NCBI GenBank assembly: GCA_964648675.1
Contig: CAZYLE010000004.1
Location: 1 to 27,023 of the forward strand
From: an uncultured Dehalococcoidales bacterium
Lineage (GTDB): Bacteria; Chloroflexota; Dehalococcoidia; E44-bin15
Direction of reading: 5' to 3'
Length of the DNA stretch: 27,023 nucleotides
Made by a program: the position numbers and the translations under genes. The notes beneath the pieces are model-generated. The model made no database searches and was not told where the DNA came from. It saw only the letters and a program-made list of their open reading frames with translations. Positions 2,840-23,059 of this stretch are shown in pieces; within the stretch, counting starts at the first letter, position 1; the number at the start of each line of letters is the position of its first letter.

Positions 2840-5014
2840 TCATACGGCGCTAATATGTGCACTGCTATACTGTGCTATTAGCTCGGCGCTATGCATTACT
2901 TTGATATTGCTTTTACGCTTATCAAGGCCACCCCTGAGTTGGAGCACGCAGGGGGTACAGTTGGTAACCACTATATCGGCACCACTAGCTTCTATACTAT
3001 CTAGCTTTCGTTTCAATACTGAGTTAGATAATTCCGGGTATCTAAGCACAATATCACCGCCAAAGCCACAACAGGCATCAGACCCAGCCATCTCTACCAC
3101 CTCAAAGCCTTCACGTTCAAGCAGTTGTCTTGGTTCATTATATACACCAAGCCCCCTCTTCAAATAGCAAGGGTCATGGTAAGTGACCTTCTTATTTAAT
3201 GGAGGTCTCTTCTCTACCGAAGGAGTTAGTTCAAGAACCAGTTGCGAGAAATCGCGAATTTTACTTGACAGCGCTTTCGCTCGCTGGTTCCACTCTGGCT
3301 CAGTAGTGGTCAGGCGTGGATACTCCTGTTGTAGCATAACTGCACAGCCAGGACACACCGTAACGATATAATCAGGATTCATTTCTTCCAAAGCAGCGAT
3401 GTTCCTTTTAGCTAAGCTTAGCGCTGTTTCAGCATCGCCAGCAAACCACGCTGGAGCACCACAGCACGTTTGTCCTTGCGGATAATAAGGCTCAGCACCA
3501 CATTCCCGCAGAACCTTCATCACATCTTCACCAAGGTCGGGGTAGGCATAATCAGCCACACAGCCGGCATAGAAAGCTGCCCTAGGACTAACTCCAGCCC
3601 TGGGCGATGATAAATCCTTCAACCTGTCACGTAATGGACTATTTGACAGCGCGGGAAGGCTGATAGTCCTGGCCAGCGAATCCAATGGATAAGGAAGGTG
3701 TCTTGTCATAGAGTCTTTATCGGTGAAAGGCCGTTGCAGATAGGAACCAGCTCTTATTGCGCTATCCAATCGCTCTGGGTGTTTCAGGATGCCTCGGTAT
3801 GCCATTTTGCCTCTCCATGACAAGCCCTCTTCTGCCACAAACCTAGCCTTTAACTGGGCTATCATTTGCGGTATATCGATACAAGCTGGGCAGACTTCCT
3901 TGCAGGCCATGCATCCCATGCATAGGCTAGCTGGATCCTTTGCCTTATCCATGCCATGTAGGAAGGCAGTCAAGACAGCGCCAATCCCACCCTGATAGAT
4001 GTACCCATATGTTTGTCCAGCGACTGATTGAAAAACCGGGCAAACGTTGAGACAGGCACCGCATTTGATGCAGTATAGTGCCTCTCTGAACTCAGAGGAT
4101 TCTCTCGTTTGCCAGCGGCCATTGTCGACTAGTACGATATGCACCTCGATAGGACCTTGTGCACCGAGCGTTGTTGTCCCTGGAATAGCACTAGTAGTGC
4201 TGGGACCGGTAATATAAGAGACATAGATTGGCATTTTCATACCCATTGTGCTTCTGCTCAGTAGTCTCAGTATGGAGTCAGCATCTTCTAAACTCGAAAC
4301 CAACTTCTCATAGCCAACCAGCGCCACATGTACAGGAGGCAAAGTAGTCGCCATACAACCATTCGCTTCATTAGTCACGATGACTACAGTGCCAGTTTCA
4401 GCTATGGCGATATTGGCTCCTGAAATACCCATGTCTGCATTAATATAGAACTGCCTTAATGCGCGACGTGCTGCATTCAATAAAGCCTGAGGGTCAGGTT
4501 CCAGATGCTCACCCGTTCCTTCGGAGATAAGCTCAGCGACCTGTTCAATCGTTTTATGTATGGCTGGCCCCACCATATGCGCCGGCCTTTCCCCAGCTAG
4601 TTGTACGATCCATTCTCCAATGTCGGTTTCCTTTACCTCAACGCCAGCGTTCTCAAGATACTCCCTTAGCTCGAGCTCCTCAGTGAGCATGGATTTTGAT
4701 TTGACTATGTGTTTCACATGGCGTTCCTCTGCTAGCTTGAGTACATAGTTGTTGGCATCCTCGGCATCCCTTGCCTCATACACCACAGCGCCAGCCTCAG
4801 CAGCTTCAGTCTTAAATTGCTCCACTAACTGAGGTAGGTTGGCAATCGATTTCTCCTTCACGCGATGAATTTCTTTGCTTAAAGCATCAAAATCAATGCC
4901 CTCCAGTGCCATTTGGCGCACTATATTTAGGAGAGGTATCAATCTACCAAGAGCACTCTGCAGATTTTCATCTGTCAGCGCTTCATGTACACGCTTCGCC
5001 ATTTCCCTGCTCAT
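2840..5014 (-). CDS. lutB: LutB/LldF-LutA/LldE-type fusion: LUD domain + 2x[4Fe-4S] + two CCG domains (lactate/2-hydroxyacid dehydrogenase)
   Basis: KSKSM.TEE, ETDIGEWIVQL, HMVGPAIH, GANIAIAETG, CIKCGACLNVCP and CMGCMACKEVCP, followed by two CCG repeats (TCCGAP...CPGC; YHDPC...CCGFGG...NCTPC). Confidence 0.88.
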   Translation of the reverse strand: MSREMAKRVHEALTDENLQSALGRLIPLLNIVRQMALEGIDFDALSKEIHRVKEKSIANLPQLVEQFKTEAAEAGAVVYEARDAEDANNYVLKLAEERHVKHIVKSKSMLTEELELREYLENAGVEVKETDIGEWIVQLAGERPAHMVGPAIHKTIEQVAELISEGTGEHLEPDPQALLNAARRALRQFYINADMGISGANIAIAETGTVVIVTNEANGCMATTLPPVHVALVGYEKLVSSLEDADSILRLLSRSTMGMKMPIYVSYITGPSTTSAIPGTTTLGAQGPIEVHIVLVDNGRWQTRESSEFREALYCIKCGACLNVCPVFQSVAGQTYGYIYQGGIGAVLTAFLHGMDKAKDPASLCMGCMACKEVCPACIDIPQMIAQLKARFVAEEGLSWRGKMAYRGILKHPERLDSAIRAGSYLQRPFTDKDSMTRHLPYPLDSLARTISLPALSNSPLRDRLKDLSSPRAGVSPRAAFYAGCVADYAYPDLGEDVMKVLRECGAEPYYPQGQTCCGAPAWFAGDAETALSLAKRNIAALEEMNPDYIVTVCPGCAVMLQQEYPRLTTTEPEWNQRAKALSSKIRDFSQLVLELTPSVEKRPPLNKKVTYHDPCYLKRGLGVYNEPRQLLEREGFEVVEMAGSDACCGFGGDIVLRYPELSNSVLKRKLDSIEASGADIVVTNCTPCVLQLRGGLDKRKSNIKVMHSAELIAQYSSAHISAV

Positions 5015-5068
5015 GTCTCCGCCTCACACTACACAGCTATAGCCCCTACCTGAACTTTATGCGCCCTA

Positions 5069-5812
5069 TCATTTACTTGCAGCCTTACTTACTAGTAAAA
5101 TATGCTCTTCATCGGGACCTTGAGCCCTAGCCATCAACGCCTTTGGTATATCAGCGGTAGTGTTTCTACCGGTGATATAAGTGACATAGCTCGGCATTTT
5201 CCTATCCATCATGGTTCTGCTAAGCAGTTTAAGCCTGACAGTGGCATCTTCCATAGTTGAGACTAACTCTTCGCAGCCAACCATGGTTACATGTATACGA
5301 GGCAAAACAGCGACCAAGCGCTCATTCCCTTCGTTGCCCACAATGATTAAAGTCCCGGTTTCAGCTATGGCAATGCTAGCTTCCGAAATGCCCATATCTG
5401 CACTCAGATATAACTTTTTCAACGCCCGACGTACGGCACCTAATACAGCCCGAGGGTCAGGTTCCAGTTGCTCACCAGTCCGTTCAGAGATAAGTTCAGC
5501 GACCTGCTCAATGGTTTCATATGGGGCAGAGCCTGCCATCTGCGCCGGTCTTCCCCCAGCTAGCTGGACGATCCATTCTCCGATGTCGGTTTCCTTTACT
5601 TCGATGCCACCATTTTCAAGGTGCGCCTTTAACCCCATTTTCTCCGCCAGCACTGATTTTGACTTGACTATAAGCTTCACACTACGTTCCTGTGCCAGTT
5701 TCAACACATAATCATTGGCATCCGCGGCATCTTTGGCTTCATAGACCAGGGCGCCAGCGTTAGCAGCCCCCGTTTTAAATTGCTCCACAAGTTCTGCAGC
5801 TCCCATAGCCAT
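5069..5812 (-). CDS. Stand-alone LUD-domain protein, paralog of the adjacent LutB N-terminus
   Basis: Collinear with the LutB LUD domain (43 of the first 60 aligned residues identical by hand count), with no Fe-S motifs. Start ATG 5812 follows GAGGGG. Confidence 0.85.
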   Translation of the reverse strand: MAMGAAELVEQFKTGAANAGALVYEAKDAADANDYVLKLAQERSVKLIVKSKSVLAEKMGLKAHLENGGIEVKETDIGEWIVQLAGGRPAQMAGSAPYETIEQVAELISERTGEQLEPDPRAVLGAVRRALKKLYLSADMGISEASIAIAETGTLIIVGNEGNERLVAVLPRIHVTMVGCEELVSTMEDATVRLKLLSRTMMDRKMPSYVTYITGRNTTADIPKALMARAQGPDEEHILLVSKAASK

Positions 5813-5871
5813 TTCCAAGACCCCCTCAACAAATTACAAAATAGTACGTACCACTTTATTCCTATAGGCCA

Positions 5872-6495
5872 TCACTGCTGCCGCTCGGCAAGCTCCATGC
5901 CCCTGCTGAAGGCCGTCATATTGGCCTCAAATTCCTTGAAGAAACTCTCTTGCAACACCGGCTCCAGCGACTCCTTGTCTAGCGGGAGGACACCAGAGCC
6001 AACAAGGGCGCCAATGAGGATTACATTGGCAAAGATAGGGTTTCCCATCCTTTGTGCTTCTTCGGTAGCATTTATTACCCATGTTTTAGCTGACAGCTCC
6101 TTGATGGTTTCCATGAGCTTATCCATGTTGGGATATTCAGCATCACCGCCGGTAACATCAATGGAATATATCGGCCTAGGATTCACTATAGTCATGACAT
6201 CGGGGTTACCAAACTGTCCCAGCATTCGCAAAGTTTCTACCGGCTCCATGCCGAGGATGACGTCAGCGCATCCGTCGGAGATAAATGGGCTACACTCAGT
6301 TTCCTTCGAAATTCTCATATGGCTCATGACGGCTCCACCCCGTTGGGACGCCCCATAGGTCTCCCCAATAGTCACATAGTAGCCTTGCCTTACCAGGGCA
6401 TTACCGATGAGCAGGGAGATTCTCACATTGCCTTGCCCACCAACGCCGGTAATTATTAGGTTAAGTGGCTCCTTCATTAGGGCTTTCGTCTTCAT
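5872..6495 (-). CDS. iorB: Indolepyruvate/aryl-2-oxoacid:ferredoxin oxidoreductase beta subunit
   Basis: GVGGQG, ETYGASQRGGAVMSHMRI, D..LGMEP.E and N..AF..G. ATGA overlap with iorA; RBS AGGAGG. Confidence 0.92.
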   Translation of the reverse strand: MKTKALMKEPLNLIITGVGGQGNVRISLLIGNALVRQGYYVTIGETYGASQRGGAVMSHMRISKETECSPFISDGCADVILGMEPVETLRMLGQFGNPDVMTIVNPRPIYSIDVTGGDAEYPNMDKLMETIKELSAKTWVINATEEAQRMGNPIFANVILIGALVGSGVLPLDKESLEPVLQESFFKEFEANMTAFSRGMELAERQQ

Positions 6496-8432
6496 GTTGC
6501 CTCCTTTACGATGGCTCCTCGTGGACATATATCTGCGCACACCCCACATCCGGTACATATGACCTCGTCTATCTTAGCCTTACCAATATCCGTATCCCAT
6601 ATCAATCCAGGGCAACGAAATACCCTGGTGCATAATCTGTCACAACCACAGGCCTCTCCAATACACACATCAGGATCAACATATACTTTATATGGGTTTT
6701 CCTTTTCCCTGTGGCTTCTTACCAGCTCGCACTCGCGTCGCATTATCACCACCTTAGCCCCGCCACCGTCCGCCATCATTTCCAGCAAGGTTGCAGTAGT
6801 ATCCTCAAGATCGAAGGGGTCGCAAATGACTACATGTGTCCCCAATGCGCCGCATAAAGCTTCCATGCTAACAACCTTTGTTACCTCCCCAGTAGCGGTC
6901 ACCCCGGTTCCAGGGTGAGGTTGGAAACCAGTCATGGCAGTAGCGCTGTTATCCAAGATAACAAGGATGAAATTCGCCTGATTGTACACCCCGTTTATCA
7001 GTGCCGGTATTGCGGCATGAAAGAACGTAGAGTCGCCGCATACAGCGAGCACCGGCTGGTTGAAACCGAACTGCCCCAATTTGCCAAGGCCGTTGGCCAC
7101 TCCCACCCCCGCTCCCATGCAATGCATCGTCCGCACCTGGAAAAAGCCCGCAGGTCCCAGTGCCATTGAGTAGCAGCCGATATCACCGGTAACAATTCCG
7201 TTGCGCCCATCCAGCTTAAGTGCATTCTTGATCGCCCAGAAGGTAGCACGATGAGCGCAACCAGGGCAAAAAGTCATCATCCGTTGGGGCACATATCTTC
7301 TTGAGGCTTCCTGTGCTTTCTTAGCATATTCAACGTCCCGCGGTTGATACGACAGCCCCATTATGCTTGTTATCGCTTTAATAACCATATCTGGGTTTAG
7401 CTCTCCATAAGCATTTATATCGCCAGAACGCTTGCCATAGAAGACCGGATGTGGGCCGTCAGGCGGCAGGTTGGCAACCAGTTCCATCACGCTTCGCTCC
7501 AGGAAGGGGTCGATCTCCTCAACCACAAGTACTTTATGCGATTTGCCCAGATGTCTTTCCACAAGTTTTTCTGGTAAGGGCCAAAGAGTGCCCAGTTTCA
7601 GGATGCCCACCTTGTCCTCCAGTTTCAATGCCTTCACCGCTTCCTGGGAGTACAGCCAGCAGCTACCACAGGTTATGATGAGCAAATCTGCTTTATCCGG
7701 ACCTATGTACCAATTGAAGGGTGATGATTCAAACTTTCCCCGCGCATTTTCCAACTTCACGTGCAGCAAAGCATGCCGCAATGCGCTCGGAACCGGCATA
7801 AACCTGGTCGGCATGACGTTCCGTGCATCGTGTACCTGATCGAAATATGCCTTCTGTTCCTTTTTAAGCAATTCACCCAGCTTTACATTGCCCCTAGCAT
7901 GGGCAATGCGAGTTACACTCCGCAGCATACAGATGGTGCCTAGCTCCTCCGAAAGCTCAAAGAGCCATTTTGTCATATCCTTGGCTTCCTGGAAGTTACC
8001 TGGCTCAAGTAACGGAATGTCTAACCATTTAGCTATGGGACGCGTGTCCTGTTCATTAGAACTGGAGATAGCGGAAGGATCATCGCAGCTAACAAGAACT
8101 AATCCCCCTTTACCTATACCAGTCATTACGAGATTTGCTAGAAAATCAGAAACGACATTTACCCCATTCTGCTTCATAGAGGCGATGGCTCGGATTCCAG
8201 CAAAGGAAGCGCCAGTAGCAGCCTCCATGGCCACTTTTTCATTTACCGACCACTGGGCGTAGATGCCCATCTTCTTGGCTACAGATGCCAGACTTTCCAT
8301 GATTTCTGACGAAGGCGTCCCGGGGTAGGCAGCAGCAAATCCTACCCCCGCTTCCAGTGCGCCACGGGCAATAGCTTCGTTACCAATAAAGAGCTGACTG
8401 GTACCAGGAGCATCTATGTCAATACTTGCCAT
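6492..8432 (-). CDS. iorA: Indolepyruvate/aryl-2-oxoacid:ferredoxin oxidoreductase alpha subunit
   Basis: GNEAIARG, YPGTPSSE, NEKVA.E, FCPGC.HR, GDIGC, TPP motif GDSTFFH...DN..TAMTG.QPHP and a C-terminal ferredoxin domain. Start ATG 8432 follows GGAGGTG. Confidence 0.93.
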   Translation of the reverse strand: MASIDIDAPGTSQLFIGNEAIARGALEAGVGFAAAYPGTPSSEIMESLASVAKKMGIYAQWSVNEKVAMEAATGASFAGIRAIASMKQNGVNVVSDFLANLVMTGIGKGGLVLVSCDDPSAISSSNEQDTRPIAKWLDIPLLEPGNFQEAKDMTKWLFELSEELGTICMLRSVTRIAHARGNVKLGELLKKEQKAYFDQVHDARNVMPTRFMPVPSALRHALLHVKLENARGKFESSPFNWYIGPDKADLLIITCGSCWLYSQEAVKALKLEDKVGILKLGTLWPLPEKLVERHLGKSHKVLVVEEIDPFLERSVMELVANLPPDGPHPVFYGKRSGDINAYGELNPDMVIKAITSIMGLSYQPRDVEYAKKAQEASRRYVPQRMMTFCPGCAHRATFWAIKNALKLDGRNGIVTGDIGCYSMALGPAGFFQVRTMHCMGAGVGVANGLGKLGQFGFNQPVLAVCGDSTFFHAAIPALINGVYNQANFILVILDNSATAMTGFQPHPGTGVTATGEVTKVVSMEALCGALGTHVVICDPFDLEDTTATLLEMMADGGGAKVVIMRRECELVRSHREKENPYKVYVDPDVCIGEACGCDRLCTRVFRCPGLIWDTDIGKAKIDEVICTGCGVCADICPRGAIVKEAT

Positions 8433-8463
8433 ATTATTCACCTCCCTAATCTGCTGTCCACCA

Positions 8464-9576
8464 TTAAGCCAGGAGCTTATCAACCATGCTCTTCGATAGC
8501 CCAATATAAAATAGGTCGCTTTTATCGCCACTCATTTTAACGATTTCCTCTACTGCCCTTTTCTTCTTTAGCAGCGCCGCCTCTTTCAGATGAGCTAGAT
8601 TCTGAGGTGGCAATCGGTCAACCTCAAGTTTACCCTTGGCCTTGGCCATCTCCACAAGCTCCGCACCAACATTGGTGCGGACAATGACAGTGTTCCAGCC
8701 TTCGATTCCCTCAACCGAGCCCACCGAGATATCAGCAAGCTCCGATGTCATGTCCAGGCAGTACCTGCATGTTGACATAATATATCTCCTGATCTGGTCC
8801 AATGGAAAAGAGACAATGCCGAACCGGGTATAGGCATCGAATCTATCTGCCGGAGGGGGCGGAATGTCGAACTTGATTACCTGCGGCAAGTCTAGGTTCT
8901 CCTCAAGGAAGTGATAAAATCCATCAGGAGATAAAGCCCAGGTACAAAACAGTCCAATCACCAGCTTTACATTACCAATACTTACTCTGTTCTGTTGTGG
9001 AGCTTTCTTCATCTTGGCCAGAGCCAGTGCCTGGCAGGGCATGACAACTACTCCCACCCTCTCTTCACTATCTGTAGGAATGCCGTTTAATGCCGCTAAT
9101 ACAGGGCAAGCCATGTAATTGGAGCCAGCGCATTGAAGCACCTCTTCCATATTACGAGCCAAGAAAGCCCTTGGTGTCTTATCACCGGATGTTTTTGACA
9201 TAACTGCTCCCTCAATGAGTCCCTCTGCCAGCGCCAGGGACAAGAGTGTGGTTACCGTTCCACCATATTGGGCCCTTTCCTTTATGCGTGCATCCTTTGA
9301 CCTTGCCATCAATACTTCCTTGGCAGTGCCTATTTCATCATCGCTATATGGTTTCCCAAAAACTAGCTGGCTGAGCGCGTCCATATCGGTGTATGTCCGT
9401 GGGCAATATTGATAACATTGGCCCTCTGCCAGAGTGCAATTGTCCAGAAGCACTATTCTGCCTTTGTAGGGGACCAGGTATGGACAACCACCAGCACACG
9501 CACCACATAGGGTGCATAATCCGGCATCGATTACTTCGTTGAACAGCTCCTTCGAGCCTTTTACTCTCGTATCCAT
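8464..9576 (-). CDS. FrhB/FdhB-family (F420-reducing beta subunit) flavoprotein with N-terminal ferredoxin domain, FpoF-like architecture
   Basis: N-terminal CTLCGACAGGCP and CYQYCP, then FrhB motifs GGTVTTLL, GSNY, PCQ, IGLFC and CRYC.D..SELADISVG. Confidence 0.88.
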   Translation of the reverse strand: MDTRVKGSKELFNEVIDAGLCTLCGACAGGCPYLVPYKGRIVLLDNCTLAEGQCYQYCPRTYTDMDALSQLVFGKPYSDDEIGTAKEVLMARSKDARIKERAQYGGTVTTLLSLALAEGLIEGAVMSKTSGDKTPRAFLARNMEEVLQCAGSNYMACPVLAALNGIPTDSEERVGVVVMPCQALALAKMKKAPQQNRVSIGNVKLVIGLFCTWALSPDGFYHFLEENLDLPQVIKFDIPPPPADRFDAYTRFGIVSFPLDQIRRYIMSTCRYCLDMTSELADISVGSVEGIEGWNTVIVRTNVGAELVEMAKAKGKLEVDRLPPQNLAHLKEAALLKKKRAVEEIVKMSGDKSDLFYIGLSKSMVDKLLA

Positions 9577-9621: not shown

Positions 9622-10866
9622 TCACGAAAAATACTGTATTGTACCATCGGGAACCACCGCTACCCGAGCACCCTGGGGGAAGTCCTGTGTCAAAATATCC
9701 ATAACCTCCGACCAGGTCTTCACCCAGAGGGTATCAGGTATGGCCAGCCAGTCGGCAAAAGACTTCTCAATCTGTGGTGACAATACTATCATTCTTTTAA
9801 GCCAAGGTAGCTGGAAATTGACCGGGCTAAACAAGCGCCCTCTTATTGATTTGCCAAAACTGCCCAGCAGGTAATGCACTACCTGACCAGCAGGACAATC
9901 CATAATCAATACAAGGTCGCCACCCTTCTCCGCCAATAACTGTACCCCCATGAGCAGACCAACGATTGCTTCATTAGCCTTGCTGTAGTTATTGACTACT
10001 GCCACATCGATCTCCGAGGCAGCTTTAGTAGTATAGTGCGGCACGACAGATTTCAAGGCCTCATTGAACTCAGCCTGAGTTTCCCCAGCGAATGCGGCAC
10101 AAGGCTCCCCCTTGCCATTAATCATGGTATCGATTTTAAAGTCCAGCCCCACCATTCTGGCTGCCTCATTAAAGTCCCGTATCATAGGATTCTCAGTGTA
10201 TTTACCAGGCCCTACAATGTCTCCGTGTCCAGAGTATCTAGCTTCGATTTCTAGGCGGTGAAAGCCCTCGATTGAGTCCATTGAAGCTATACCAGGCAGG
10301 ATAATCTTCCCACCGCCGCCATATCCACTTTGGACATGCGGGACTATGGACCCAATGGCGATCTTAAGGTTACAGCTCATCACCTCAGCATTAACAGATA
10401 GTTCGGTGCCTTGCGACGTCCGTCCAACATATTTGCAGTTCTCATATGCGTTGTGATTGTAAACTGGGAACCTATCCAGTATTTCCCCTCCCAATTTCTT
10501 CTGGAAGTCCTCAAAGGTATGCGCGCTGTGGGAGCCGGTAGCGCAGATAAATCTGATGGCCGCATCAGGAATGCCTGCTGCCTCTAGCTCCTCGAGAACA
10601 TAGGGCACTAGCTCGGCAGCACGTGTGGGTCGGGAAAGGTCATCAAAGATTATAACCACTTCGTTCTTCCCCTGTGCCAACTCCCTGAGTGGCGGTGTGC
10701 CAATAGGCTTGCTGAAGGCAGCCCTTATCTGTTCTGACATCATGTGAGGGGCATTGTGCCCATTCATACGGCAGGGCAAAACTTCCCACGACTCGGGAAA
10801 TTCTAGCTGCCAATCTCCCCGTTCATACCACATTTGTCTGGGAACTGTCATAGTCCTGATGCCCAT
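9622..10866 (-). CDS. LarA-superfamily (nickel-pincer-type) 2-hydroxyacid racemase/epimerase-like protein
   Basis: PIGTPPL, DDLSRPT, ATGSH, NH, IVPH..SGYGGG.K.ILPG and I...H match the LarA N-terminal domain. The C-terminal domain is divergent. Confidence 0.85.
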   Translation of the reverse strand: MGIRTMTVPRQMWYERGDWQLEFPESWEVLPCRMNGHNAPHMMSEQIRAAFSKPIGTPPLRELAQGKNEVVIIFDDLSRPTRAAELVPYVLEELEAAGIPDAAIRFICATGSHSAHTFEDFQKKLGGEILDRFPVYNHNAYENCKYVGRTSQGTELSVNAEVMSCNLKIAIGSIVPHVQSGYGGGGKIILPGIASMDSIEGFHRLEIEARYSGHGDIVGPGKYTENPMIRDFNEAARMVGLDFKIDTMINGKGEPCAAFAGETQAEFNEALKSVVPHYTTKAASEIDVAVVNNYSKANEAIVGLLMGVQLLAEKGGDLVLIMDCPAGQVVHYLLGSFGKSIRGRLFSPVNFQLPWLKRMIVLSPQIEKSFADWLAIPDTLWVKTWSEVMDILTQDFPQGARVAVVPDGTIQYFS

Positions 10867-10926: not shown

Positions 10927-11715
10927 TTATTTTTTTAAGTTTGAGACCCTAGCTGTTATGGCTGCGCCTAAGGCTGTCACTATATGGGGATGTGGAGGTA
11001 CAAGTAGCCGAATATTCAACTCATGTTCTACAGCCTCGACGAGCCCGTTATTAAGGGCACCACCGCCACAGATAGCACACGGCTCTACCAACCTGACCTT
11101 CTTAGACAGTGAGAATATCTTGTCGGCTAAGGCTTTGTTGACCCCAGCGGCGATATCCTCTTTAGGGATGCCCTCAGCAACCCTGGTAATAGCCTCTGAT
11201 TCGCCAAAAACAGCGCATCCCGTGCTGAAAGTGACGGGATTTTTAGACTGAAGAGAAAGAGGGCCAAAGTCCTCCAAATCTATTCGCAACACGTTGGCAA
11301 TAAGCTCGACAAATTGGCCGCTTCCGGCGGCGCACTTTTCACTAATGGTGAAGTTGGCCACCAGCCCCTCCCCATCTATGCGTATTAATTTAACGGACTG
11401 CCCTGCCACATCGATAACTGTCCTCGCTGAGGGGAAGATGCTATTTATACCTCTGGCAGTGCAAACTATATCACTAACTCTCTGACTGGCGAAGTAGACG
11501 CTGCCAGCACCGGTGCCGGTGGCTACGGTAGCGGTAATATGATCCAGAGCTAGGTTAACCTCTGTCAGCAGCTCCTCTCTTATCCTCTCGGCTGTCGTGC
11601 GGTAATTGGCGCCGGAAAGTATCACGCAGTAAGCAGAAAGCTCGTTATCTCTAGTTATAACTCCCTTGCTATACGCCGAGCCGATGTCGATACCGATAAA
11701 CCAAGACATTTGCAT
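10927..11715 (-). CDS. BadF/BcrD-type ATPase activase, degenerate delta-like subunit
   Basis: GIDIGS...K, DVAGQSVK, EKCAAGSGQF, GCAVFGESE, GGGALN and ALGAA. Confidence 0.88.
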   Translation of the reverse strand: MQMSWFIGIDIGSAYSKGVITRDNELSAYCVILSGANYRTTAERIREELLTEVNLALDHITATVATGTGAGSVYFASQRVSDIVCTARGINSIFPSARTVIDVAGQSVKLIRIDGEGLVANFTISEKCAAGSGQFVELIANVLRIDLEDFGPLSLQSKNPVTFSTGCAVFGESEAITRVAEGIPKEDIAAGVNKALADKIFSLSKKVRLVEPCAICGGGALNNGLVEAVEHELNIRLLVPPHPHIVTALGAAITARVSNLKK

Positions 11716-11722
11716 TGCTTCC

Positions 11723-12565
11723 TCACTTGAAGAAGGTGGCCTTTTCTAAACGGCGCTGCTTTGCCGGTGCAGGCTCACCCCTGGCTATTGCCGCCAATGA
11801 GAGTTCCCTTGCCAGTATAGCAGCGCCAAGTGCGCCGGTTATAAGTGGGTCTTCAGGAACAAGAAGTTCGCAGCCCAGATAATCATTCATCGCTCTAATG
11901 ATGCCACGGTTTTTTGCCACCCCTCCAGTAAGCACCACATCAGGTTCTATTTTCAGCCTCCGTGCTAATCCGGCTACTCTGCTCGCCACAGCATCGCTAA
12001 GGCCGGCTAGGATATCTTCCAACTTTTCTCCCTCAGACAAGCGAGCTACTACCTCTTGCCGGGCGAAGATAGTGCATAAGTTGCTAATCTGGACTTTCTT
12101 GGTAGACCTTAAGGAAATATCTCCCATATCCTCTAGCTTAATATTCAGCGCCGCAGCGATGACTTCCAGGAACCTGCCTGTGCCAGCGGCACATTTATCG
12201 TTCATAACGAAGTCGACCAACTTGCCCTTATCGATCTTCATACACTTAGCATCCTGTCCGCCGATATCAATAGCTGTCCTGACACTGGGAAACAAACTGA
12301 ATACCCCCCTGGCATGACAAGTCAGTTCGGTAATCTGACGGTCGGCGAAAGGAACATTGAAACGGCCATAGCCTGTGGCTACAACGTATGAAATCTCATC
12401 AAGCTGCAAATTGGCTTGCCCCAACGCCATTTGCATAACCTCATCGGCTAACTGGCGATGTTCAGGACCAGTGGGGCCTTTGACGACTGACAGAATGTTA
12501 TCATCCACATCCATAAGCAGAATCTTAGTCATAGTGGAACCTATGTCGACCCCAGCAAAATACAA
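11723..12565 (-). CDS. BadG/BcrA/HgdC-type ATPase activase, canonical subunit
   Basis: GVDIGSTMTK, TGYGR, TELTCHARG, DIGGQDAK, MNDKCAAGTGRFLE, CTIFA..E and GGVAKN. Start is TTG 12565 or GTG 12571. Confidence 0.92.
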   Translation of the reverse strand: MYFAGVDIGSTMTKILLMDVDDNILSVVKGPTGPEHRQLADEVMQMALGQANLQLDEISYVVATGYGRFNVPFADRQITELTCHARGVFSLFPSVRTAIDIGGQDAKCMKIDKGKLVDFVMNDKCAAGTGRFLEVIAAALNIKLEDMGDISLRSTKKVQISNLCTIFARQEVVARLSEGEKLEDILAGLSDAVASRVAGLARRLKIEPDVVLTGGVAKNRGIIRAMNDYLGCELLVPEDPLITGALGAAILARELSLAAIARGEPAPAKQRRLEKATFFK

Positions 12566-12587
12566 GTGCACCTCTCAAACTGTATTT

Positions 12588-13754
12588 TTAGCTAATAGTT
12601 TCCAGGAAGGCTTCAACCCTTGTTCTTAACGGTGCCAGGGCTCCTTGCGCATAGTCGTATTCTATGTAGGTGCTGGGAATACCAATGCTGTCGAAGTAGT
12701 CTTTGAGTGAAGGAATTTCAAAAGCGAATGGGTCACAATAGCGGACGAGCAAGAATATTGCTCCATTGACTTTCCATTCTCGAGCGAAGTCTTTCAGATA
12801 ACCAAATCGGTTTCCCAAATCTTCCAGATAGTCTTTCTTAGTCTCACCAAGAACAGTCTCTCTGAATGTGCGAGCGCAGGTTATCTCCTCCAAATAGTAC
12901 TGAGCCAGTCCATCCAATGGATCATCGGTTAGCTTTACCTCAGCCCTGAAGGGTCTAATGCCCCCACAGCTCTCGTCTAACACCACATTTGCCCCGTTCT
13001 CGAATATCTGCATTATCTCGGTATCATCCAGCGTGCTGCTCCAGAGGATAAGCCGCACTGGTTTCCTTTCAGGCCCATCGGTACGGTCTTTGACCTCGCC
13101 AATAACTTGGGCTAGTAACTCATTGCCTTCGTCCACAGGCAGACTCATCAACGCCTTTACTACCTGGAGGATCTCCGTTCCCGAGATAAGAGGCGTCTCG
13201 GGCTTCGTTTGTTCGTACAGTTCTCTTACCAAGGCTCGCTGTTGATTATGAGATTGGATGGCTGCCTTGAGTCTGTCTGAGGAAAGCTCCTTTTTAGTGA
13301 AAGCCTCCAGTGTCTTCTTCAAATCGTTTAATTGCCCTTTGAAGTACTCCATAGCCTCCGGTCGAACCGTGCCAGGTATATCCATGAAATGGAAATAGGG
13401 ATAGCTTATATAAGATTCCCACAGACGAGCCGTTTTTTCTTGAGGGTCACAAGAATGAGCTACAATTATCCCGTCCAGGAAATCATCTCTGGCTTTGAGT
13501 GCGCAATCAAAGCAGCTACGAATGATAGGGCAAAACGAGGTAGGCAACGCTCTATCTGCCTCGGTGACCGGCTCCTTGATATCTCCGTATGTTCGGTACG
13601 GGATCACACCAAGCGCAGTAAGCATCTCTACAGGCACATAGACGCAGGGATAACCTATGACCTTCTTGCCTTCCGCCTTAAGCTCTTTGACTCTGCGGGA
13701 CCGGTTTCGGTAAATCTCCTTGGCTTTACTAAGCCCTTTGCTTTTATCTGCCAT
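12588..13754 (-). CDS. 2-hydroxyacyl-CoA dehydratase / class I benzoyl-CoA reductase subunit (HgdB/BcrC/BzdN-like)
   Basis: HGD-D family pattern: GYPCVYVPVEM..A.G..P, FCP, HSCD, RYCDP and TRVEAFLE. Confidence 0.88.
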   Translation of the reverse strand: MADKSKGLSKAKEIYRNRSRRVKELKAEGKKVIGYPCVYVPVEMLTALGVIPYRTYGDIKEPVTEADRALPTSFCPIIRSCFDCALKARDDFLDGIIVAHSCDPQEKTARLWESYISYPYFHFMDIPGTVRPEAMEYFKGQLNDLKKTLEAFTKKELSSDRLKAAIQSHNQQRALVRELYEQTKPETPLISGTEILQVVKALMSLPVDEGNELLAQVIGEVKDRTDGPERKPVRLILWSSTLDDTEIMQIFENGANVVLDESCGGIRPFRAEVKLTDDPLDGLAQYYLEEITCARTFRETVLGETKKDYLEDLGNRFGYLKDFAREWKVNGAIFLLVRYCDPFAFEIPSLKDYFDSIGIPSTYIEYDYAQGALAPLRTRVEAFLETIS

Positions 13755-13790
13755 TTTCTACAACTCACCAAGCTGAAATTTGCTGTTTTC

Positions 13791-15134
13791 CTACCAATCG
13801 AAACCCTCTTGCTTCCTTACTCTTCGGTAATACTCCATTGTCTCCTCGAATGGTTCCGCCCTGGCTATGGCATCTTCGGGGTCAAACAACCGAAGGTCTA
13901 CGATATCTCCTTCAATTGTTAGTGAAGGCACCTTTAGCCTTTCCATTATCAAGTTTGCCACATACGGCAAATGTGTGGAGGCGCTGCGGCAACTGATGAG
14001 GGGGTGGAGGAGCGCCCCATCGCATTTCCATTCTCTTACATACTTCAAGTATGGATATGCCAAGGCGCCGGCGGGCACATTTTGTTCCAACGCGTCTTCA
14101 TAATAGCCAATAAAAACCTGGAGACTGAATCTGGTGATTTTCTCCAGAGGGTTGCTAACCTCACTCAGGTCAAGAGGAATAGGCGGTCGGTAGCCAAAAC
14201 TCTCGACGACGAAGTTCCATCCCCTCTCGGCCAATCTATCGAAGAATCCCAAGCTATGCCACGGCGGAAGCTCGGCGAATACCAGTCGATATCTCTCCTC
14301 GTCAATGGCTCCTACATGGTTTTTCACCCTATCCCTCACCTCTTCATACATATCCCGATAGCATTGCAACGAATGCTTCAGATCGCCCATCAGAAACAGC
14401 GCTGCAGGCATTGCACTCCAGAAATCTCTGCTATGCATGGGGCAGGGTTTTGCCTTGCGCAGTTCGCTTATTTCATGCCACAGCCGGTTAACCTCTATCA
14501 TAAGGTCTACTGTCTCATCCAATTTATCCCAGTCCATTTTCCTGCCAGTGATACGTTCGACGAAGTTAATAAACTCACCGAGATGCTGAACTCCTAAATG
14601 AACCATCCGTTCATATGAGCCTTCCATGAACAGTTCCTTCACTCCAGGCATTGGCGCTTCCAATGTCCATACCGGAACATCCATATAGCGGCCTAATGAC
14701 TGGAACCACTTATACCTAGCATCACAAACAGCAGCCGAAGACATCAGGAATATGGGTTTCGGCATGCCTCCTAGAGGCGCCTCCGCAGGTATTTCGCCTT
14801 TCAGTTCTCTCATCATCTTCGAGGTATAGCCAAGAGTAGCCCGGCTATAACCACACAGGTGGGTAGGAAACCCGTCAGCATCGGCATATTCCAGGTAAGG
14901 TTGGGCAAATCCCGTAGCGGCAAGGGCAGCACCGTAATTCTCTGGATATACTACTTCCAAATCCATGGCTTTGAGTATAGGGTCACCATAATACCAGTTA
15001 AGCATAGCCCACACTGTGGGTTTGCCCGCTCTCATAGCTTCAACGCTCTTTAGGTACGTCTCATTTACCTTGGCTCGAAGCGGGTACATTGATTTCAGCC
15101 GGTTTATCGCCTTCTTCTTTTCCTCGACAGCCAT
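13791..15134 (-). CDS. 2-hydroxyacyl-CoA dehydratase / class I benzoyl-CoA reductase subunit (HgdA/BcrB/BzdO-like)
   Basis: YPENY.A, LCGY, GG.PKP, VCD...KW, SCR and EGD.VD.R. Three putative cluster cysteines. Confidence 0.88.
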   Translation of the reverse strand: MAVEEKKKAINRLKSMYPLRAKVNETYLKSVEAMRAGKPTVWAMLNWYYGDPILKAMDLEVVYPENYGAALAATGFAQPYLEYADADGFPTHLCGYSRATLGYTSKMMRELKGEIPAEAPLGGMPKPIFLMSSAAVCDARYKWFQSLGRYMDVPVWTLEAPMPGVKELFMEGSYERMVHLGVQHLGEFINFVERITGRKMDWDKLDETVDLMIEVNRLWHEISELRKAKPCPMHSRDFWSAMPAALFLMGDLKHSLQCYRDMYEEVRDRVKNHVGAIDEERYRLVFAELPPWHSLGFFDRLAERGWNFVVESFGYRPPIPLDLSEVSNPLEKITRFSLQVFIGYYEDALEQNVPAGALAYPYLKYVREWKCDGALLHPLISCRSASTHLPYVANLIMERLKVPSLTIEGDIVDLRLFDPEDAIARAEPFEETMEYYRRVRKQEGFDW

Positions 15135-16301: not shown

Positions 16302-16449
16302 AGCTTGCCCAGGGCGCAAGCATGCGGAAAGGAAGCCAAATTCGATAATCAGCAGGATATGGCGGTGGCATACCAATTGGTGTCCCGGTTGGAAGGCATA
16401 TCAGAAGGAGTTAGCTGAGCAACTGCAAGAACCAGGTACAGAGCGGTGA
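16285..16449 (+). CDS. Small 54-aa Cys/His/Trp-rich protein, absent from the ORF track
   Basis: MKSKCEACPGRKHAERKPNSIISRIWRWHTNWCPGWKAYQKELAEQLQEPGTER. GGAGGT lies 8 nt before the ATG, the ORF overlaps the yhhN stop, and a hairpin follows. Confidence 0.7.
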   Translation: MKSKCEACPGRKHAERKPNSIISRIWRWHTNWCPGWKAYQKELAEQLQEPGTER

Positions 16450-16457
16450 GCCGCTCT
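16440..16457. terminator. Hairpin between the convergent small ORF and radical SAM gene; possible terminator
   Basis: AGAGCGG-TGAG-CCGCTCT, a 7-bp stem without a clear U-tract. Confidence 0.4.
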
Positions 16458-16577
16458 ATAAATGGAGCATCATTCTTCACTTGTGACGCCGTCTGATTGC
16501 GCCTGGCAGAGCTCGCCAAGGTCGTTTTACCGCAGGCACCATTGGGACTGTACCAAAACCGGGTTTCGCGCTCATAT

Positions 16578-21130: not shown

Positions 21131-21131
21131 G

Positions 21132-23051: not shown

Positions 23052-23059
23052 TAGCGCCG

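What the first reader, a model, noticed from the sequence alone, without database searches (positions are those of the whole stretch)
10927..15134. Heterodimeric activase marks a reductase-type (BCR-like) complex, yet the catalytic subunits look intermediate
There are two single-domain activases: one canonical (DIGGQDAK, TGYGR) and one degenerate (DVAGQSVK, TGTGA). Both keep the two cluster cysteines (seen). Dehydratases use a homodimeric activator, while class I BCRs use an alpha/delta heterodimer (established). The 447-aa subunit keeps HAD-like YPEN and GD..D.R motifs. This may be an uncharacterised clade between HADs and Bzd-type BCRs with a new substrate (inference).
Basis: partly seen in the sequence, partly recalled or inferred. 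Interest (0 to 1): 0.65.

Follow-up and report, generated by a model that had tools for sequence, protein, structure and literature searches.

The report
Uncharacterised ATP-driven iron-sulfur acyl-CoA enzyme cassette
Four adjacent genes encode an uncharacterised branch of the enzyme family that holds ATP-dependent benzoyl-CoA reductases and 2-hydroxyacyl-CoA dehydratases; it mixes traits of both, is common in sediment Dehalococcoidia, and carries annotation labels of the kind used there to infer aromatic-ring degradation.

Summary
The minus strand at 10927-15134 carries four genes: alpha (447 aa), beta (388 aa), a canonical activase (Act1) and a remodelled activase (Act2).

The order alpha-beta-Act1-Act2 is kept in 55 of 64 informative loci. 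Nearly all of these come from Dehalococcoidia metagenome-assembled genomes (MAGs). The activase pair persists in relatives whose alpha is only 36-44% identical.

Beta has all six cysteines that bind the [8Fe-9S] double-cubane cluster in BzdN, and BzdN is its best match. Alpha has the three-cysteine [4Fe-4S] site plus the catalytic glutamate. By sequence and by fold it is equally distant from HadB, BzdO and MbdO. An invariant Arg replaces BzdO His131.

The family lies in a large clade known only from MAGs. That clade excludes all three solved catalytic subunits (94.5% bootstrap).

Act2 is not an orthologue of the benzoyl-CoA reductase (BCR) delta subunit. Close relatives have deleted Act1, yet the remaining genes stay under purifying selection. 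Neighbouring genes point to 2-oxo/2-hydroxy-acid and acyl-CoA fermentation, not to the benzoyl-CoA pathway.

My best reading is a ferredoxin-fed, ATP-driven enzyme with reductase-type electron-injection hardware and an unknown substrate that is not benzoyl-CoA. A dehydratase role remains a serious rival. It is a new variant of a known kind, of moderate interest.

The parts
13791..15134 (-). Alpha (447 aa): the substrate-binding catalytic subunit. It is predicted to hold a [4Fe-4S] cluster on C94, C137 and C382 with one open iron. E65 lies in YPEN, R140 in the invariant CDARYKW, and the GDIVDLR motif is at 409-415.
   Evidence: Pfam HGD-D. C94/C137/C382 align with BzdO Cys95/128/380, E65 with Glu65 and Y96 with Tyr97. 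The three cysteines are >=99% conserved in 77 sequences. The AF2 model has pLDDT 84 and matches BzdO, MbdO and HadB at TM 0.77-0.79.
12588..13754 (-). Beta (388 aa): the electron-relay subunit. It is predicted to hold an [8Fe-9S] double cubane on C37, C75, C102, C263, C293 and C340.
   Evidence: These cysteines align one-to-one with BzdN Cys36/73/100/263/293/327. Family conservation is 97/100/72 (Ser in the rest)/97/97/100%. The equivalents of BzdN Arg53 and Arg267 are kept. Profile scores are BzdN 222, HadC 170, DCCP 162 and MbdN 128 bits.
11723..12571 (-). Act1 (282 aa): a canonical ATP-dependent electron activase. It has a conserved C-terminal tail, RRLEKATFFK.
   Evidence: Pfam BcrAD_BadFG and TIGR00241 at 273 bits, above the cut-off of 125. 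It is 47% identical to HadI and MbdQ. DIGST..K, TGYGR, DIGGQDAK, GGVAKN and both cluster Cys are >=90% conserved.
10927..11715 (-). Act2 (262 aa): a diverged activase paralogue. It keeps both [4Fe-4S] ligand cysteines and the fold motifs, but its nucleotide site is systematically remodelled.
   Evidence: TIGR00241 at 212 bits. GST becomes GS(A/V). TGYGR becomes TG(S/T)GA, with R to A in 44/47. DIGGQD becomes D-V-[AG]-[GSA]-Q-S, with D to S in 46/47. Both Cys are present in 47/47. MbdP shows a milder change at the same position, DIGGQT. It is 29% identical to MbdP and 39% to Act1.
9622..10866 (-). LarA-like nickel-pincer 2-hydroxyacid racemase homologue. It sits in the same operon only in this sub-lineage.
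   Evidence: Pfam Lar_N. Best NCBIfam hits are LarAH6 at 211 bits and LarAH10 at 191 bits, both below cut-off. It is conserved downstream of the cassette in L001, L081 and L082.
8464..9576 (-). FrhB/FdhB-like iron-sulfur flavoprotein with an N-terminal Fer4 domain, in the same operon.
   Evidence: Pfam FrhB_FdhB_N, FrhB_FdhB_C and Fer4. Conserved in L081 and L082.
5872..8531 (-). IOR-type 2-oxoacid:ferredoxin oxidoreductase. The alpha ORF is 6492-8531 (the true start is probably further in) and the beta ORF is 5872-6558. It is a likely source of both reduced ferredoxin and an acyl-CoA.
   Evidence: TIGR03336 IOR_alpha at 588 bits vs a cut-off of 651, and IOR_beta models at about 150-158 bits. 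Pfam POR_N, TPP_enzyme_C, Fer4 and POR. Conserved in L081 and L082.
2840..5818 (-). LUD-domain protein (5069-5818) and LdhH-type L-lactate/2-hydroxyacid dehydrogenase (2840-5014). These are the last genes of the putative 10-gene operon.
   Evidence: NF045670 LdhH at 857 bits, above the cut-off of 800. LUD249 aligns to model positions 57-273. A terminator-like hairpin at 2833-2818 follows the stop codon.

Best explanation
The four genes encode one ATP-driven, low-potential iron-sulfur radical enzyme of the class I BCR / 2-hydroxyacyl-CoA dehydratase superfamily. It acts on an acyl-CoA thioester and belongs to a separate, uncharacterised clade.

Proposed working (cofactor sites are read from the sequence; the flow of electrons is inferred):
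1. Reduced ferredoxin is made in this operon by the IOR-type 2-oxoacid oxidoreductase. That enzyme is fed by the LarA-like racemase and the LdhH-type 2-hydroxyacid dehydrogenase.
2. The ferredoxin reduces a [4Fe-4S] cluster bridged between Act1 and Act2.
3. ATP hydrolysis, mainly or only at the intact site of Act1, drives the electron into an [8Fe-9S] double cubane in beta.
4. From beta the electron goes to the open-site [4Fe-4S] cluster in alpha. There the acyl-CoA is converted through a ketyl-type radical, with Glu65 and the invariant Arg140 beside the iron.

The hardware (BzdN-like double cubane, asymmetric two-gene activase, dedicated ferredoxin-reducing oxidoreductase) resembles BZD-type reductases more than dehydratases. 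I therefore favour a net reductive reaction with stoichiometric ATP use. The substrate would not be benzoyl-CoA and probably derives from a 2-hydroxy or 2-oxo acid.
For: Superfamily and cofactor sites:
- Pfam and NCBIfam domain hits.
- Alpha C94/C137/C382, E65 and Y96 correspond to BzdO Cys95/128/380, Glu65 and Tyr97.
- Beta carries all six BzdN double-cubane cysteines plus the Arg53 and Arg267 equivalents, and they are conserved across the family. HadC has only 4 of the 6 positions and MbdN only 3.
- Beta scores BzdN 222 bits against HadC 170.

Activase pair:
- It is conserved in 55/64 loci and in relatives at 44% and 36% alpha identity.
- Act1 motifs are intact. Act2 is remodelled in a conserved way at the same Asp that is Thr in MbdP.

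Active-site position of BzdO His131:
- It is Arg or His in this radiation and in the BzdO clade, but hydrophobic in the HadB clade.

Operon content in the window:
- There is a 2-oxoacid:ferredoxin oxidoreductase but no CoA-transferase, acyl-CoA dehydrogenase or Etf.
- The same operon is kept in L081 and L082.

Background from Fuchs et al. 2025 (PMC11971306): the [8Fe-9S] cluster of BzdN is proposed to store two or more electrons. Precedent recalled from memory, not checked here: 2-oxoglutarate:ferredoxin oxidoreductase genes accompany bcr/bzd clusters in Thauera and Azoarcus.
Against: - Alpha scores slightly better against HadB than against BzdO (130 vs 114 bits) and carries HadB-form motifs (YPEN, GD..D.R).
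- BzdO Gln274 is Leu here, as in HadB (Ile).
- Three kinds of 2-oxo/2-hydroxy-acid genes recur near cassettes: the LarA racemase here; a D-2-hydroxyacid dehydrogenase in L042-L048 and L068; and an aminotransferase directly upstream in at least six loci. Family III CoA-transferases and acyl-CoA dehydrogenases also recur. This is the classic setting of a dehydratase.
- The double cubane may be an ancestral trait that was simply retained, and MbdN shows that a reductase can lack it.
- Heterodimer formation is untested. Act1 is deleted in L001, L081 and L082, yet alpha, beta and Act2 keep dN/dS of 0.06-0.18.
- Three loci lack Act2 and five lack both activases.
- No substrate, ATP stoichiometry or cofactor content has been measured.
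Confidence: 0.45

Rival explanations
1. It is a 2-hydroxyacyl-CoA dehydratase that activates itself catalytically. One electron is injected once, with ATP, and is then recycled. The enzyme dehydrates an (R)-2-hydroxyacyl-CoA derived from an amino acid or 2-hydroxy acid to the enoyl-CoA. The double cubane and the second activase would be ancestral or accessory features without a redox-stoichiometric role.
For: - The best single-sequence and profile match of alpha is HadB, with HadB-form YPEN and GD..D.R motifs.
- The LarA-type racemase directly downstream could supply the (R)-enantiomer. LdhH and IOR could form the oxidative branch of a lactate or aryl-lactate fermentation.
- The L068 operon holds a D-2-hydroxyacid dehydrogenase, two family III CoA-transferases, alpha, beta, an acyl-CoA dehydrogenase, an SDR and an enoyl-CoA hydratase.
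- An aminotransferase lies directly upstream in at least six loci, and an acyl-CoA dehydrogenase lies nearby in 22 loci.
- In L072 the cassette is followed by MaoC, Ptb, Buk and thiolase, a fermentative layout.
- One or both activases are lost in several loci. That fits a factor needed only in catalytic amounts and suppliable in trans.
Against: - Beta keeps all six double-cubane ligands under selection, and HadC lacks two of them.
- Beta is clearly closer to BzdN than to HadC (222 vs 170 bits).
- To my knowledge every characterised dehydratase has a single activator gene, whereas the pair here is conserved across a deep radiation.
- The window operon has no CoA-transferase, acyl-CoA dehydrogenase or Etf.
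- HadB and HadC equivalog scores are far below cut-off.
- Alpha groups specifically with HadB in only 5% of bootstraps.
Confidence: 0.33
2. It is simply the Dehalococcoidia version of the BZD-type class I benzoyl-CoA reductase (BzdNOPQ) and dearomatises benzoyl-CoA. Metagenome annotations and several papers on sediment Dehalococcoidia assume this kind of function.
For: - JGI names homologues 'benzoyl-CoA reductase subunit B'.
- Sewell et al. 2017 reported bzdNOPQ-type BCR genes in marine Dehalococcoidia, and later studies infer aromatic degradation from bcr or bzdQ hits.
- The cofactor layout equals that of BzdNO.
- There are two different activases, as with BzdP and BzdQ.
Against: - All Bzd and Bcr equivalog models score at 10-45% of their cut-offs.
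- Alpha is only about 29% identical to BzdO, and the family excludes BzdO with its radiation in 94.5% of bootstraps.
- Key BzdO residues differ: His131 to Arg140 (invariant), Ser44 to Leu, Gln274 to Leu, and Glu381/Gly382/Leu383 to Arg/Ser/Ala.
- The gene order is O-N-Q-P rather than N-O-P-Q.
- No neighbouring gene I scanned was identifiable as a dienoyl-CoA hydratase, hydroxyacyl-CoA dehydrogenase or ring hydrolase of the benzoyl-CoA pathway in any of 80+ loci. The one crotonase cluster tested matched no such equivalog.
Confidence: 0.1
3. Act1 and Act2 do not form a heterodimer. Each is a homodimeric activase. Act2 would have a different job, such as serving another partner, acting as a regulator, or acting as an ATP-independent electron shuttle.
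For: - Act2 persists alone, under purifying selection, in L001, L081 and L082.
- Act1 occurs alone in L008, L009 and L076.
- Each paralogue keeps both cluster cysteines, so each could bridge a cluster as a homodimer.
Against: - The two genes are adjacent in 55/64 loci, 7 nt apart in the window, and remain adjacent in relatives at 36-44% alpha identity.
- Act2 has lost residues that are invariant in every characterised ATP-hydrolysing activase. An Act2 homodimer would probably be a poor ATPase.
- MBR, whose structure is solved as MbdONPQ, pairs an intact subunit with one altered at the same Asp.
Confidence: 0.12

Closest known systems
BZD-type class I benzoyl-CoA reductase, BzdNOPQ of Aromatoleum sp. 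CIB (PDB 8S02; Fuchs et al. 2025, PMC11971306)
   Same: The predicted cofactor layout is the same. There is a three-Cys [4Fe-4S] site with an open iron and the catalytic Glu in the O-like subunit. There are six Cys for an [8Fe-9S] double cubane in the N-like subunit, which is beta's best match at 222 bits. Two different single-domain activase genes sit next to the catalytic genes.
   Different: Identity is only about 29% (alpha) and about 30% (beta), and scores are far below the equivalog cut-offs. His131 is replaced by an invariant Arg, and Gln274, Ser44 and Glu381-Leu383 are not conserved. The gene order is O-N-Q-P. No neighbouring gene scanned could be assigned to the benzoyl-CoA pathway.
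(R)-2-hydroxyisocaproyl-CoA dehydratase HadBC with activator HadI of Clostridioides difficile (PDB 3O3M, 4EHT)
   Same: The best sequence match of alpha is HadB (130 bits), with identical YPEN and GD..D.R motif forms. Act1 is 47% identical to HadI. Some loci share the typical dehydratase neighbours: a D-2-hydroxyacid dehydrogenase, a family III CoA-transferase and an acyl-CoA dehydrogenase.
   Different: HadC lacks two of the six double-cubane cysteines that beta has. HadI is a single gene forming a homodimer, whereas here there is a canonical plus a remodelled activase. HadB has a hydrophobic residue where alpha has Arg140. The window operon has no CoA-transferase or acyl-CoA dehydrogenase.
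3-methylbenzoyl-CoA reductase MbdONPQ of Thauera chlorobenzoica (PDB 9G87, 9GAI)
   Same: It is a four-subunit enzyme with one intact activase subunit (MbdQ, 47% identical to Act1) and one altered at the GGQD aspartate (MbdP has DIGGQT; Act2 has D-V-A-G-Q-S). The segment HPLISCRSAST of alpha resembles HPVKSCRTVST of MbdO.
   Different: Act2 is only 29% identical to MbdP and does not group with it. MbdP keeps TGYGR and GST, which Act2 has lost. MbdN has only three of the six double-cubane cysteine positions. Alpha matches MbdO at only 90 bits.
Double-cubane cluster protein DCCP with its reductase DCCP-R of Carboxydothermus hydrogenoformans (PDB 6ENO, 7YYL)
   Same: Beta shares all six double-cubane cysteines, and the NCBIfam double_cubane model is its top hit at 203 bits. 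The electron donor is an ATP-dependent activase.
   Different: DCCP is a homodimer with a double cubane in each subunit and a homodimeric reductase. Here only beta has six Cys, alpha has three, and the score is below the cut-off of 350.

Membership tests
BCR-I/HAD superfamily (Pfam HGD-D catalytic subunits plus BcrAD_BadFG activase) | Two HGD-D-fold subunits and at least one BcrAD_BadFG/TIGR00241 activase, all above the curated thresholds | tested here: met
   HGD-D at 157 and 270 bits (cut-off 28). BcrAD_BadFG at 218 and 151 bits (cut-off 31.5). TIGR00241 at 273 and 212 bits (cut-off 125).
Class I benzoyl-CoA reductase, BZD type | O-subunit [4Fe-4S] on three Cys (95/128/380) with the catalytic Glu65 | tested here: met
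   C94/C137/C382 and E65 align with these residues and are >=99% conserved.
Class I benzoyl-CoA reductase, BZD type | N-subunit [8Fe-9S] on Cys36/73/100/263/293/327 | tested here: met
   C37/C75/C102/C263/C293/C340 align one-to-one. In 28% of family members Ser replaces the C102 equivalent. The actual cluster content was not measured.
Class I benzoyl-CoA reductase, BZD type | His131 acid/base and the benzoyl pocket and thioester contacts (Ser44, Trp46, Tyr97, Gln274, Leu383) | tested here: not met
   His131 is replaced by Arg140 (90% or more conserved within the invariant-flanked CDARYKW stretch), Ser44 by Leu, Gln274 by Leu289, and Glu381/Gly382/Leu383 by Arg/Ser/Ala. Only the Trp/Phe47 and Tyr96 equivalents are kept. 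Tyr298 and Leu302 could not be aligned.
Class I benzoyl-CoA reductase, BZD type | Orthology by the curated equivalog models BzdN, BzdO and BzdQ | tested here: not met
   Scores vs cut-offs are 152/454, 103/449, and 176 and 140/380. The family excludes BzdO in 94.5% of bootstraps.
Class I benzoyl-CoA reductase, BZD type | ATP-dependent two-electron reduction of benzoyl-CoA, with dch/had/oah pathway genes | not testable with these tools
   There is no assay. No neighbouring gene scanned could be assigned to the benzoyl-CoA pathway, but whole genomes were not searched.
2-hydroxyacyl-CoA dehydratase (HadBC/HgdAB type) | Alpha [4Fe-4S] on three Cys with an open iron and the YPEN glutamate | tested here: met
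   Same residues as above. The YPEN motif is identical to HadB LYPEN.
2-hydroxyacyl-CoA dehydratase (HadBC/HgdAB type) | Beta subunit with a single [4Fe-4S]/[4Fe-5S] cluster and no ligands for a distal sub-cluster | tested here: not met
   Beta has all six cysteines. HadC lacks the C37 and C263 equivalents.
2-hydroxyacyl-CoA dehydratase (HadBC/HgdAB type) | One activator gene whose product forms a homodimer | tested here: not met
   Two distinct activase genes are present in 55/64 loci and in the sister clades. The oligomeric state itself is not testable here.
2-hydroxyacyl-CoA dehydratase (HadBC/HgdAB type) | Orthology by the HadB/HadC equivalog models; clustered CoA-transferase and 2-hydroxyacid dehydrogenase | tested here: inconclusive
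   HadB scores 130 vs 750 and HadC 142 vs 700, so neither reaches the cut-off. A CoA-transferase and a D-2-hydroxyacid dehydrogenase are absent from the window but present in L022, L068, L084 and L042-L048. I could not obtain HgdAB, FldBC or LcdAB sequences for comparison.
Double-cubane cluster protein (DCCP) | Homodimer in which every subunit binds a double cubane; NF040772 equivalog | tested here: not met
   Alpha has three ligand Cys only. Beta scores 203 vs the cut-off of 350 and alpha scores 34.

The most novel reading that the evidence does not exclude
The cassette may be a new reaction type in the superfamily: an ATP-driven two-electron reductase that works on acyl-CoAs made in situ from 2-hydroxy acids.

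In the window the operon reads as a linear pathway that needs no CoA ligase or CoA-transferase:
1. 2-hydroxy acid, acted on by the LarA-type racemase.
2. Oxidation by the LdhH/LUD dehydrogenase to the 2-oxo acid.
3. Conversion by the IOR-type oxidoreductase to an acyl-CoA plus reduced ferredoxin.
4. Reduction of that acyl-CoA by alpha-beta, powered by an asymmetric Act1/Act2 pair that would spend one ATP per electron instead of two.

Candidate chemistries are two. One is dearomatisation or reduction of an aroyl- or enoyl-CoA, for example from mandelate-type 2-aryl-2-hydroxy acids by way of arylglyoxylates. The other is direct reductive dehydroxylation of a 2-hydroxyacyl-CoA to the saturated acyl-CoA.

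If this is right, much of the 'class I BCR' signal in sediment Dehalococcoidia would report a different, unknown metabolism.
Probability: 0.2. Interest if true: 0.8.

Novelty: new variant of a known kind. Interest (0 to 1): 0.55.

Why it matters
Dehalococcoidia are among the most abundant bacteria in anoxic sediments. Several metagenome studies infer aromatic-compound degradation from 'bcr/bzd' gene hits. Pipelines label this family 'benzoyl-CoA reductase subunit B' or '2-hydroxyacyl-CoA dehydratase'. Here it fails the defining tests of both. The family and its radiation comprise well over a hundred 50%-identity clusters with no cultured or characterised member. Knowing its reaction would correct carbon-cycle inferences.

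For enzymology it offers three things:
- A natural intermediate between dehydratases and BZD-type reductases.
- A second catabolic context for the rare [8Fe-9S] double cubane.
- A naturally asymmetric activase pair, which could show how ATP cost per electron is set in these 'archerase' ATPases.

Tried and rejected
- Literature. I found no paper on this clade, on two-gene activators of dehydratases, or on the MbdONPQ structure. The LarA papers do not mention dehydratases.
- Homology search. The word-indexed search with alpha returned only close, unnamed relatives. I had no sequences of HgdAB, FldBC, LcdAB, BcrBC/BadDE, BzdPQ or the tetrahydronaphthoyl-CoA reductase. The phylogeny therefore uses only PDB chains transcribed from HMMER alignments, and BzdO is partial.
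- Deep branching. The order among HadB, BzdO, MbdO and this radiation is unresolved (5-12% bootstrap). I do not claim it is 'closer to BCR' on the basis of the tree. A first bootstrap run had a distance-formula overflow and was repeated.
- Fold search. It did not discriminate between the references (TM 0.77-0.79).
- NCBIfam on recurrent neighbours. It gave no equivalog-level names.
- Neighbours that turned out irrelevant. Upstream purF/purM/purH, NAPRT and plsY are housekeeping genes. Downstream secreted proteins, a sigma factor and a subtilase are unrelated.
- Transcription. No RNA runs hold the sequence, only sediment DNA assemblies, so transcription and operon structure are untested.
- The Act1 deletion as an assembly artefact. 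Rejected, because the same remnant occurs in three independent assemblies. A 93%-identical contig in another run keeps Act1.
- Act2 as a decaying pseudogene. Rejected, because it has an intact ORF in 47/47, conserved substitutions and dN/dS of 0.16-0.19.

Full report
WHAT IS THERE. The minus strand between 10927 and 15134 carries four tightly packed ORFs with gaps of 36, 16 and 7 nt. They are alpha (447 aa, 13791-15134), beta (388 aa, 12588-13754), Act1 (282 aa, 11723-12571) and Act2 (262 aa, 10927-11715). Pfam assigns HGD-D to alpha and beta and BcrAD_BadFG to both activases. Both activases pass the TIGR00241 'acyl-CoA dehydratase activase' domain cut-off.

- Act1 has TGYGR (66-70) and DIGGQDAK (102-109).
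- Act2 has TGTGA and DVAGQSVK at the same positions.
- Both have the two cysteines (C127/C166 in Act1, C128/C167 in Act2) that align with the cluster ligands of HgdC, HadI, MbdQ and MbdP.
- Alpha has YPEN (63-66) and GDIVDLR (409-415). These are the HadB forms of the motifs; BzdO has TGEPY and GNMGDER, and MbdO has FPEIN and SDLVDPD.

IT IS A CONSERVED MODULE. A scan of one genome per species found 154 relatives of alpha. The best 80 loci are almost all Dehalococcoidia or Chloroflexota MAGs, with a few Desulfobacteraceae. Public runs holding the window sequence are sediment and marine-sediment metagenomes.

Among 64 loci with alpha followed by beta and enough downstream sequence:
- 55 have Act1 then Act2.
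- 3 have Act1 only.
- 1 has Act2 only.
- 5 have no adjacent activase.

Act1 and Act2 sequences form two separate monophyletic groups of 47 each. The same pairing of a canonical activase of about 280 aa with a remodelled one of about 260 aa recurs next to alpha homologues that are only 44% (L083) and 36% (L084) identical. The two-activase design is therefore old and widespread in this part of the superfamily.

PREDICTED COFACTORS. Fuchs et al. 2025 (PMC11971306) give the ligands in the BzdNO structure. BzdO binds a [4Fe-4S]-OH2 cluster through Cys95/128/380, with Glu65 and His131 beside the water. BzdN binds an [8Fe-9S] double cubane through Cys36/73/100/263/293/327.

For alpha, HMMER alignments place C94/C137/C382, E65 and Y96 on BzdO Cys95/128/380, Glu65 and Tyr97. 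These residues are >=99% conserved in 77 family members.

For beta, C37/C75/C102/C263/C293/C340 fall on all six BzdN ligands. Their conservation is 97/100/72/97/97/100%, and the 28% exceptions at C102 carry Ser. The equivalents of BzdN Arg53 and Arg267, which contact the distal sub-cluster, are also kept.

By the same alignments HadC has a Cys at only four of the six positions and MbdN at three. A profile of 28 beta sequences scores BzdN 222, HadC 170, DCCP 162 and MbdN 128 bits. Beta is therefore BzdN-like and is predicted to hold a double cubane. This is sequence inference; iron content was not measured.

WHERE ALPHA SITS. Alpha is equidistant from the solved catalytic subunits.
- Profile scores: HadB 130, BzdO 114, MbdO 90 and DCCP 41 bits.
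- Identities: 25, 29 (partial chain), 25 and 21%.
- Foldseek TM-scores of an AF2 model with pLDDT 84: 0.77 (HadB), 0.78 (BzdO), 0.79 (MbdO) and 0.67 (DCCP).
- No NCBIfam equivalog cut-off is approached.

An exhaustive HMMER search of 1.84 billion cluster representatives found 1271 homologues with E <= 1e-3, of which 156 have E <= 1e-30. The 150 best all score above the value obtained for HadB. Those I looked up come only from MAGs and have generic names.

In an NJ tree of 59 sequences with 200 bootstraps:
- The family is monophyletic in 96%.
- It joins its nearest clusters in 97.5%.
- A wider radiation excludes HadB, BzdO and MbdO in 94.5%.
- The deep order is unresolved: family plus BzdO excluding HadB is found in 9%, and family plus HadB excluding BzdO in 5%.

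One active-site column is informative. The position of BzdO His131 is Arg in this family (part of the CDARYKW stretch, whose flanking residues are invariant) and in most of the radiation. It is His in the BzdO clade and Val, Leu or Ile in the HadB clade. Other BzdO pocket residues are not kept: Ser44 is Leu, Gln274 is Leu (as HadB has Ile), and Glu381/Gly382/Leu383 are Arg/Ser/Ala.

Benzoyl-CoA is unlikely to be the substrate.

THE ACTIVASES. Act1 is a standard activase. It is 47% identical to both HadI and MbdQ, and all four nucleotide-site motifs and both cluster Cys are >=90% conserved.

Act2 is 38% identical to HadI, 39% to Act1 and only 29% to MbdP. It is therefore not the orthologue of the BCR delta subunit. 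Its nucleotide site is remodelled in a conserved way:
- GST becomes GS(A/V).
- TGYGR becomes TG(S/T)GA, with Arg to Ala in 44/47.
- DIGGQD becomes D-V-[A/G]-[G/S/A]-Q-S, with Asp to Ser in 46/47.
- Both cluster cysteines and the surrounding helices are invariant.

MbdP, the delta subunit in the solved MbdONPQ complex, has a milder change at the same aspartate (DIGGQT). I infer an asymmetric Act1/Act2 dimer that bridges one [4Fe-4S] cluster and has one competent ATP site. As background recalled from memory, class I BCRs use one ATP per electron (also stated in PMC11971306), whereas homodimeric activators have two sites. Such asymmetry would halve the ATP cost, which matters only if ATP is used stoichiometrically. 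This argument is inference.

A COMPLICATION. The closest relatives L001, L081 and L082 (93-95% alpha identity) carry the same deletion of Act1. A remnant of about 20 codons remains (HLYFAGVDIGSTMT...). A 93%-identical contig in another run keeps Act1.

Between the two deleted lineages dS is 0.3-0.5, yet dN/dS is 0.06 for alpha, 0.09 for beta and 0.18 for Act2. The system has therefore been maintained without a cis-encoded Act1. Either Act1 is supplied by a paralogous cassette (several MAGs have more than one) or Act2 can act alone. This weakens the idea of an obligate heterodimer.

GENOMIC CONTEXT. In the window the cassette heads a probable ten-gene operon: alpha, beta, Act1, Act2, a LarA-like 2-hydroxyacid racemase, an FrhB-like Fe-S flavoprotein, IOR-type 2-oxoacid:ferredoxin oxidoreductase alpha and beta, a LUD protein, and an LdhH-type lactate dehydrogenase (857 bits against a cut-off of 800). 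It ends at a terminator-like hairpin. This operon is conserved in L081 and L082 but in no other lineage.

Elsewhere the flanks vary:
- Housekeeping genes (purF/M/H, plsY).
- An aminotransferase plus Lrp directly upstream in at least six loci.
- Thiolase plus DUF35 upstream and MaoC downstream in at least five loci. In L072 these are followed by Ptb, Buk and thiolase.
- An acyl-CoA dehydrogenase in 22 loci.
- A divergent biotin carboxylase / carboxyltransferase / crotonase / BKACE set.
- A methylmalonyl-CoA-mutase-like pair.
- A D-2-hydroxyacid dehydrogenase in six loci.
- In L068, a long operon with a D-2-hydroxyacid dehydrogenase, an MFS transporter, two family III CoA-transferases, alpha, beta, a CoA ligase, an acyl-CoA dehydrogenase, an SDR and a crotonase.

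No neighbouring gene I scanned could be assigned to the benzoyl-CoA pathway. The context says 'acyl-CoA fermentation of organic or amino acids'. It does not settle the reaction.

WEIGHING THE READINGS. Four points favour a reductase:
- The BzdN-like double cubane is under selection.
- The asymmetric activase pair is deeply conserved.
- The residue at the His131 position is protic or cationic.
- The window operon supplies reduced ferredoxin and an acyl-CoA from a 2-oxoacid oxidoreductase, but lacks the CoA-transferase, acyl-CoA dehydrogenase and Etf that accompany known dehydratases.

Four points favour a dehydratase:
- Alpha carries HadB-form motifs and scores slightly higher against HadB.
- A racemase is present that could deliver the (R)-2-hydroxy acid.
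- Dehydratase-like partners occur in other loci.
- Activase genes are lost in several loci.

I put a reductase-type mechanism with an unknown substrate at about 0.45. I put a dehydratase at about 0.33 and a true benzoyl-CoA reductase at about 0.1. The question of whether Act1 and Act2 really pair is separate.

COMPARISON AND NOVELTY. The cassette works most like BZD-type class I BCR in hardware. It fails membership of that family on pocket residues and orthology. It fails membership of the dehydratases on the beta-cluster ligands and the activator number. It fails membership of DCCP on its heterodimeric make-up. It is a secure member of the wider BCR-I/HAD superfamily, so I class it as a new variant of a known kind.

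Its practical importance is that pipelines name it 'benzoyl-CoA reductase subunit B', and sediment Dehalococcoidia are credited with aromatic degradation on the basis of bcr/bzd gene hits.

LIMITS. There are no biochemical data and no multimer modelling. The reference set is restricted to PDB chains, one of them partial. The trees are NJ only. Neighbouring genes were called with a simple ORF picker. Whole genomes were not searched.

Noticed in passing
L001:6381-6474; L081:6485-6576; L082 (same layout); compare window 11723-12571: The closest relatives have an identical deletion of almost the whole canonical activase gene Act1. A remnant of about 20 codons remains, and Act2 and the rest of the operon are intact. 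dN/dS between the deleted lineages is 0.06-0.18. A 93%-identical contig in run X4 keeps Act1.
   Followed up: yes
window 21132-24961 (also GC profile 21000-25000): An aldehyde:ferredoxin oxidoreductase (639 aa, + strand) lies tail-to-tail (convergent) with a 633-aa OYE/FMN plus FAD/NAD(P) flavoenzyme carrying a CxxCxxC motif. This is the FadH / 2-naphthoyl-CoA-reductase ('type III aryl-CoA reductase') architecture. GC here is 0.54-0.61 against 0.46-0.50 in the rest of the window, so the segment may be horizontally acquired.
   Followed up: partly
window 5069-5818 and 2840-5014: The 249-aa LUD protein looks like a stand-alone copy of the N-terminal LUD domain of the adjacent 724-aa LdhH. It aligns to LdhH model positions 57-273. 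Both genes are conserved in L081 and L082.
   Followed up: partly
window 11723-11800 (Act1 C-terminus); L083:11124-11993; L084:9363-10199: Act1-type activases carry a conserved C-terminal tail, ...RRLE(K/E)ATFF(K). It is kept even at 36-44% alpha divergence. Act2 ends shortly after its last conserved motif and has no such tail. It may be a docking peptide.
   Followed up: no
beta homologues in about 19 of 69 loci (e.g. motif VTIHSSDPQE); window beta residue C102: In 28% of the family the third double-cubane ligand position is Ser instead of Cys, in a coherent subgroup. This could mean serine ligation or an altered cluster.
   Followed up: partly
L083:10560-11099: In the sister clade (44% alpha identity) a C_GCAxxG_C_C protein is inserted between beta and the two activases. 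The operon there starts with thiolase, DUF35 and an SDR. Beta in this locus lacks the C263-equivalent cysteine.
   Followed up: partly
window 15621-18071: Between the cassette and the next metabolic genes lie a YhhN-family membrane protein (+ strand) and a B12-binding radical SAM enzyme (497 aa, - strand). Both are also next to the cassette in L001.
   Followed up: no
window 6492-8531 and 5872-6558: The longest ORFs of IOR alpha and IOR beta overlap their upstream genes by about 70 nt. The real starts are probably internal (near MASIDIDAPG and MKTKALMKEP). L081 gene calls give 645 and 204 aa.
   Followed up: partly
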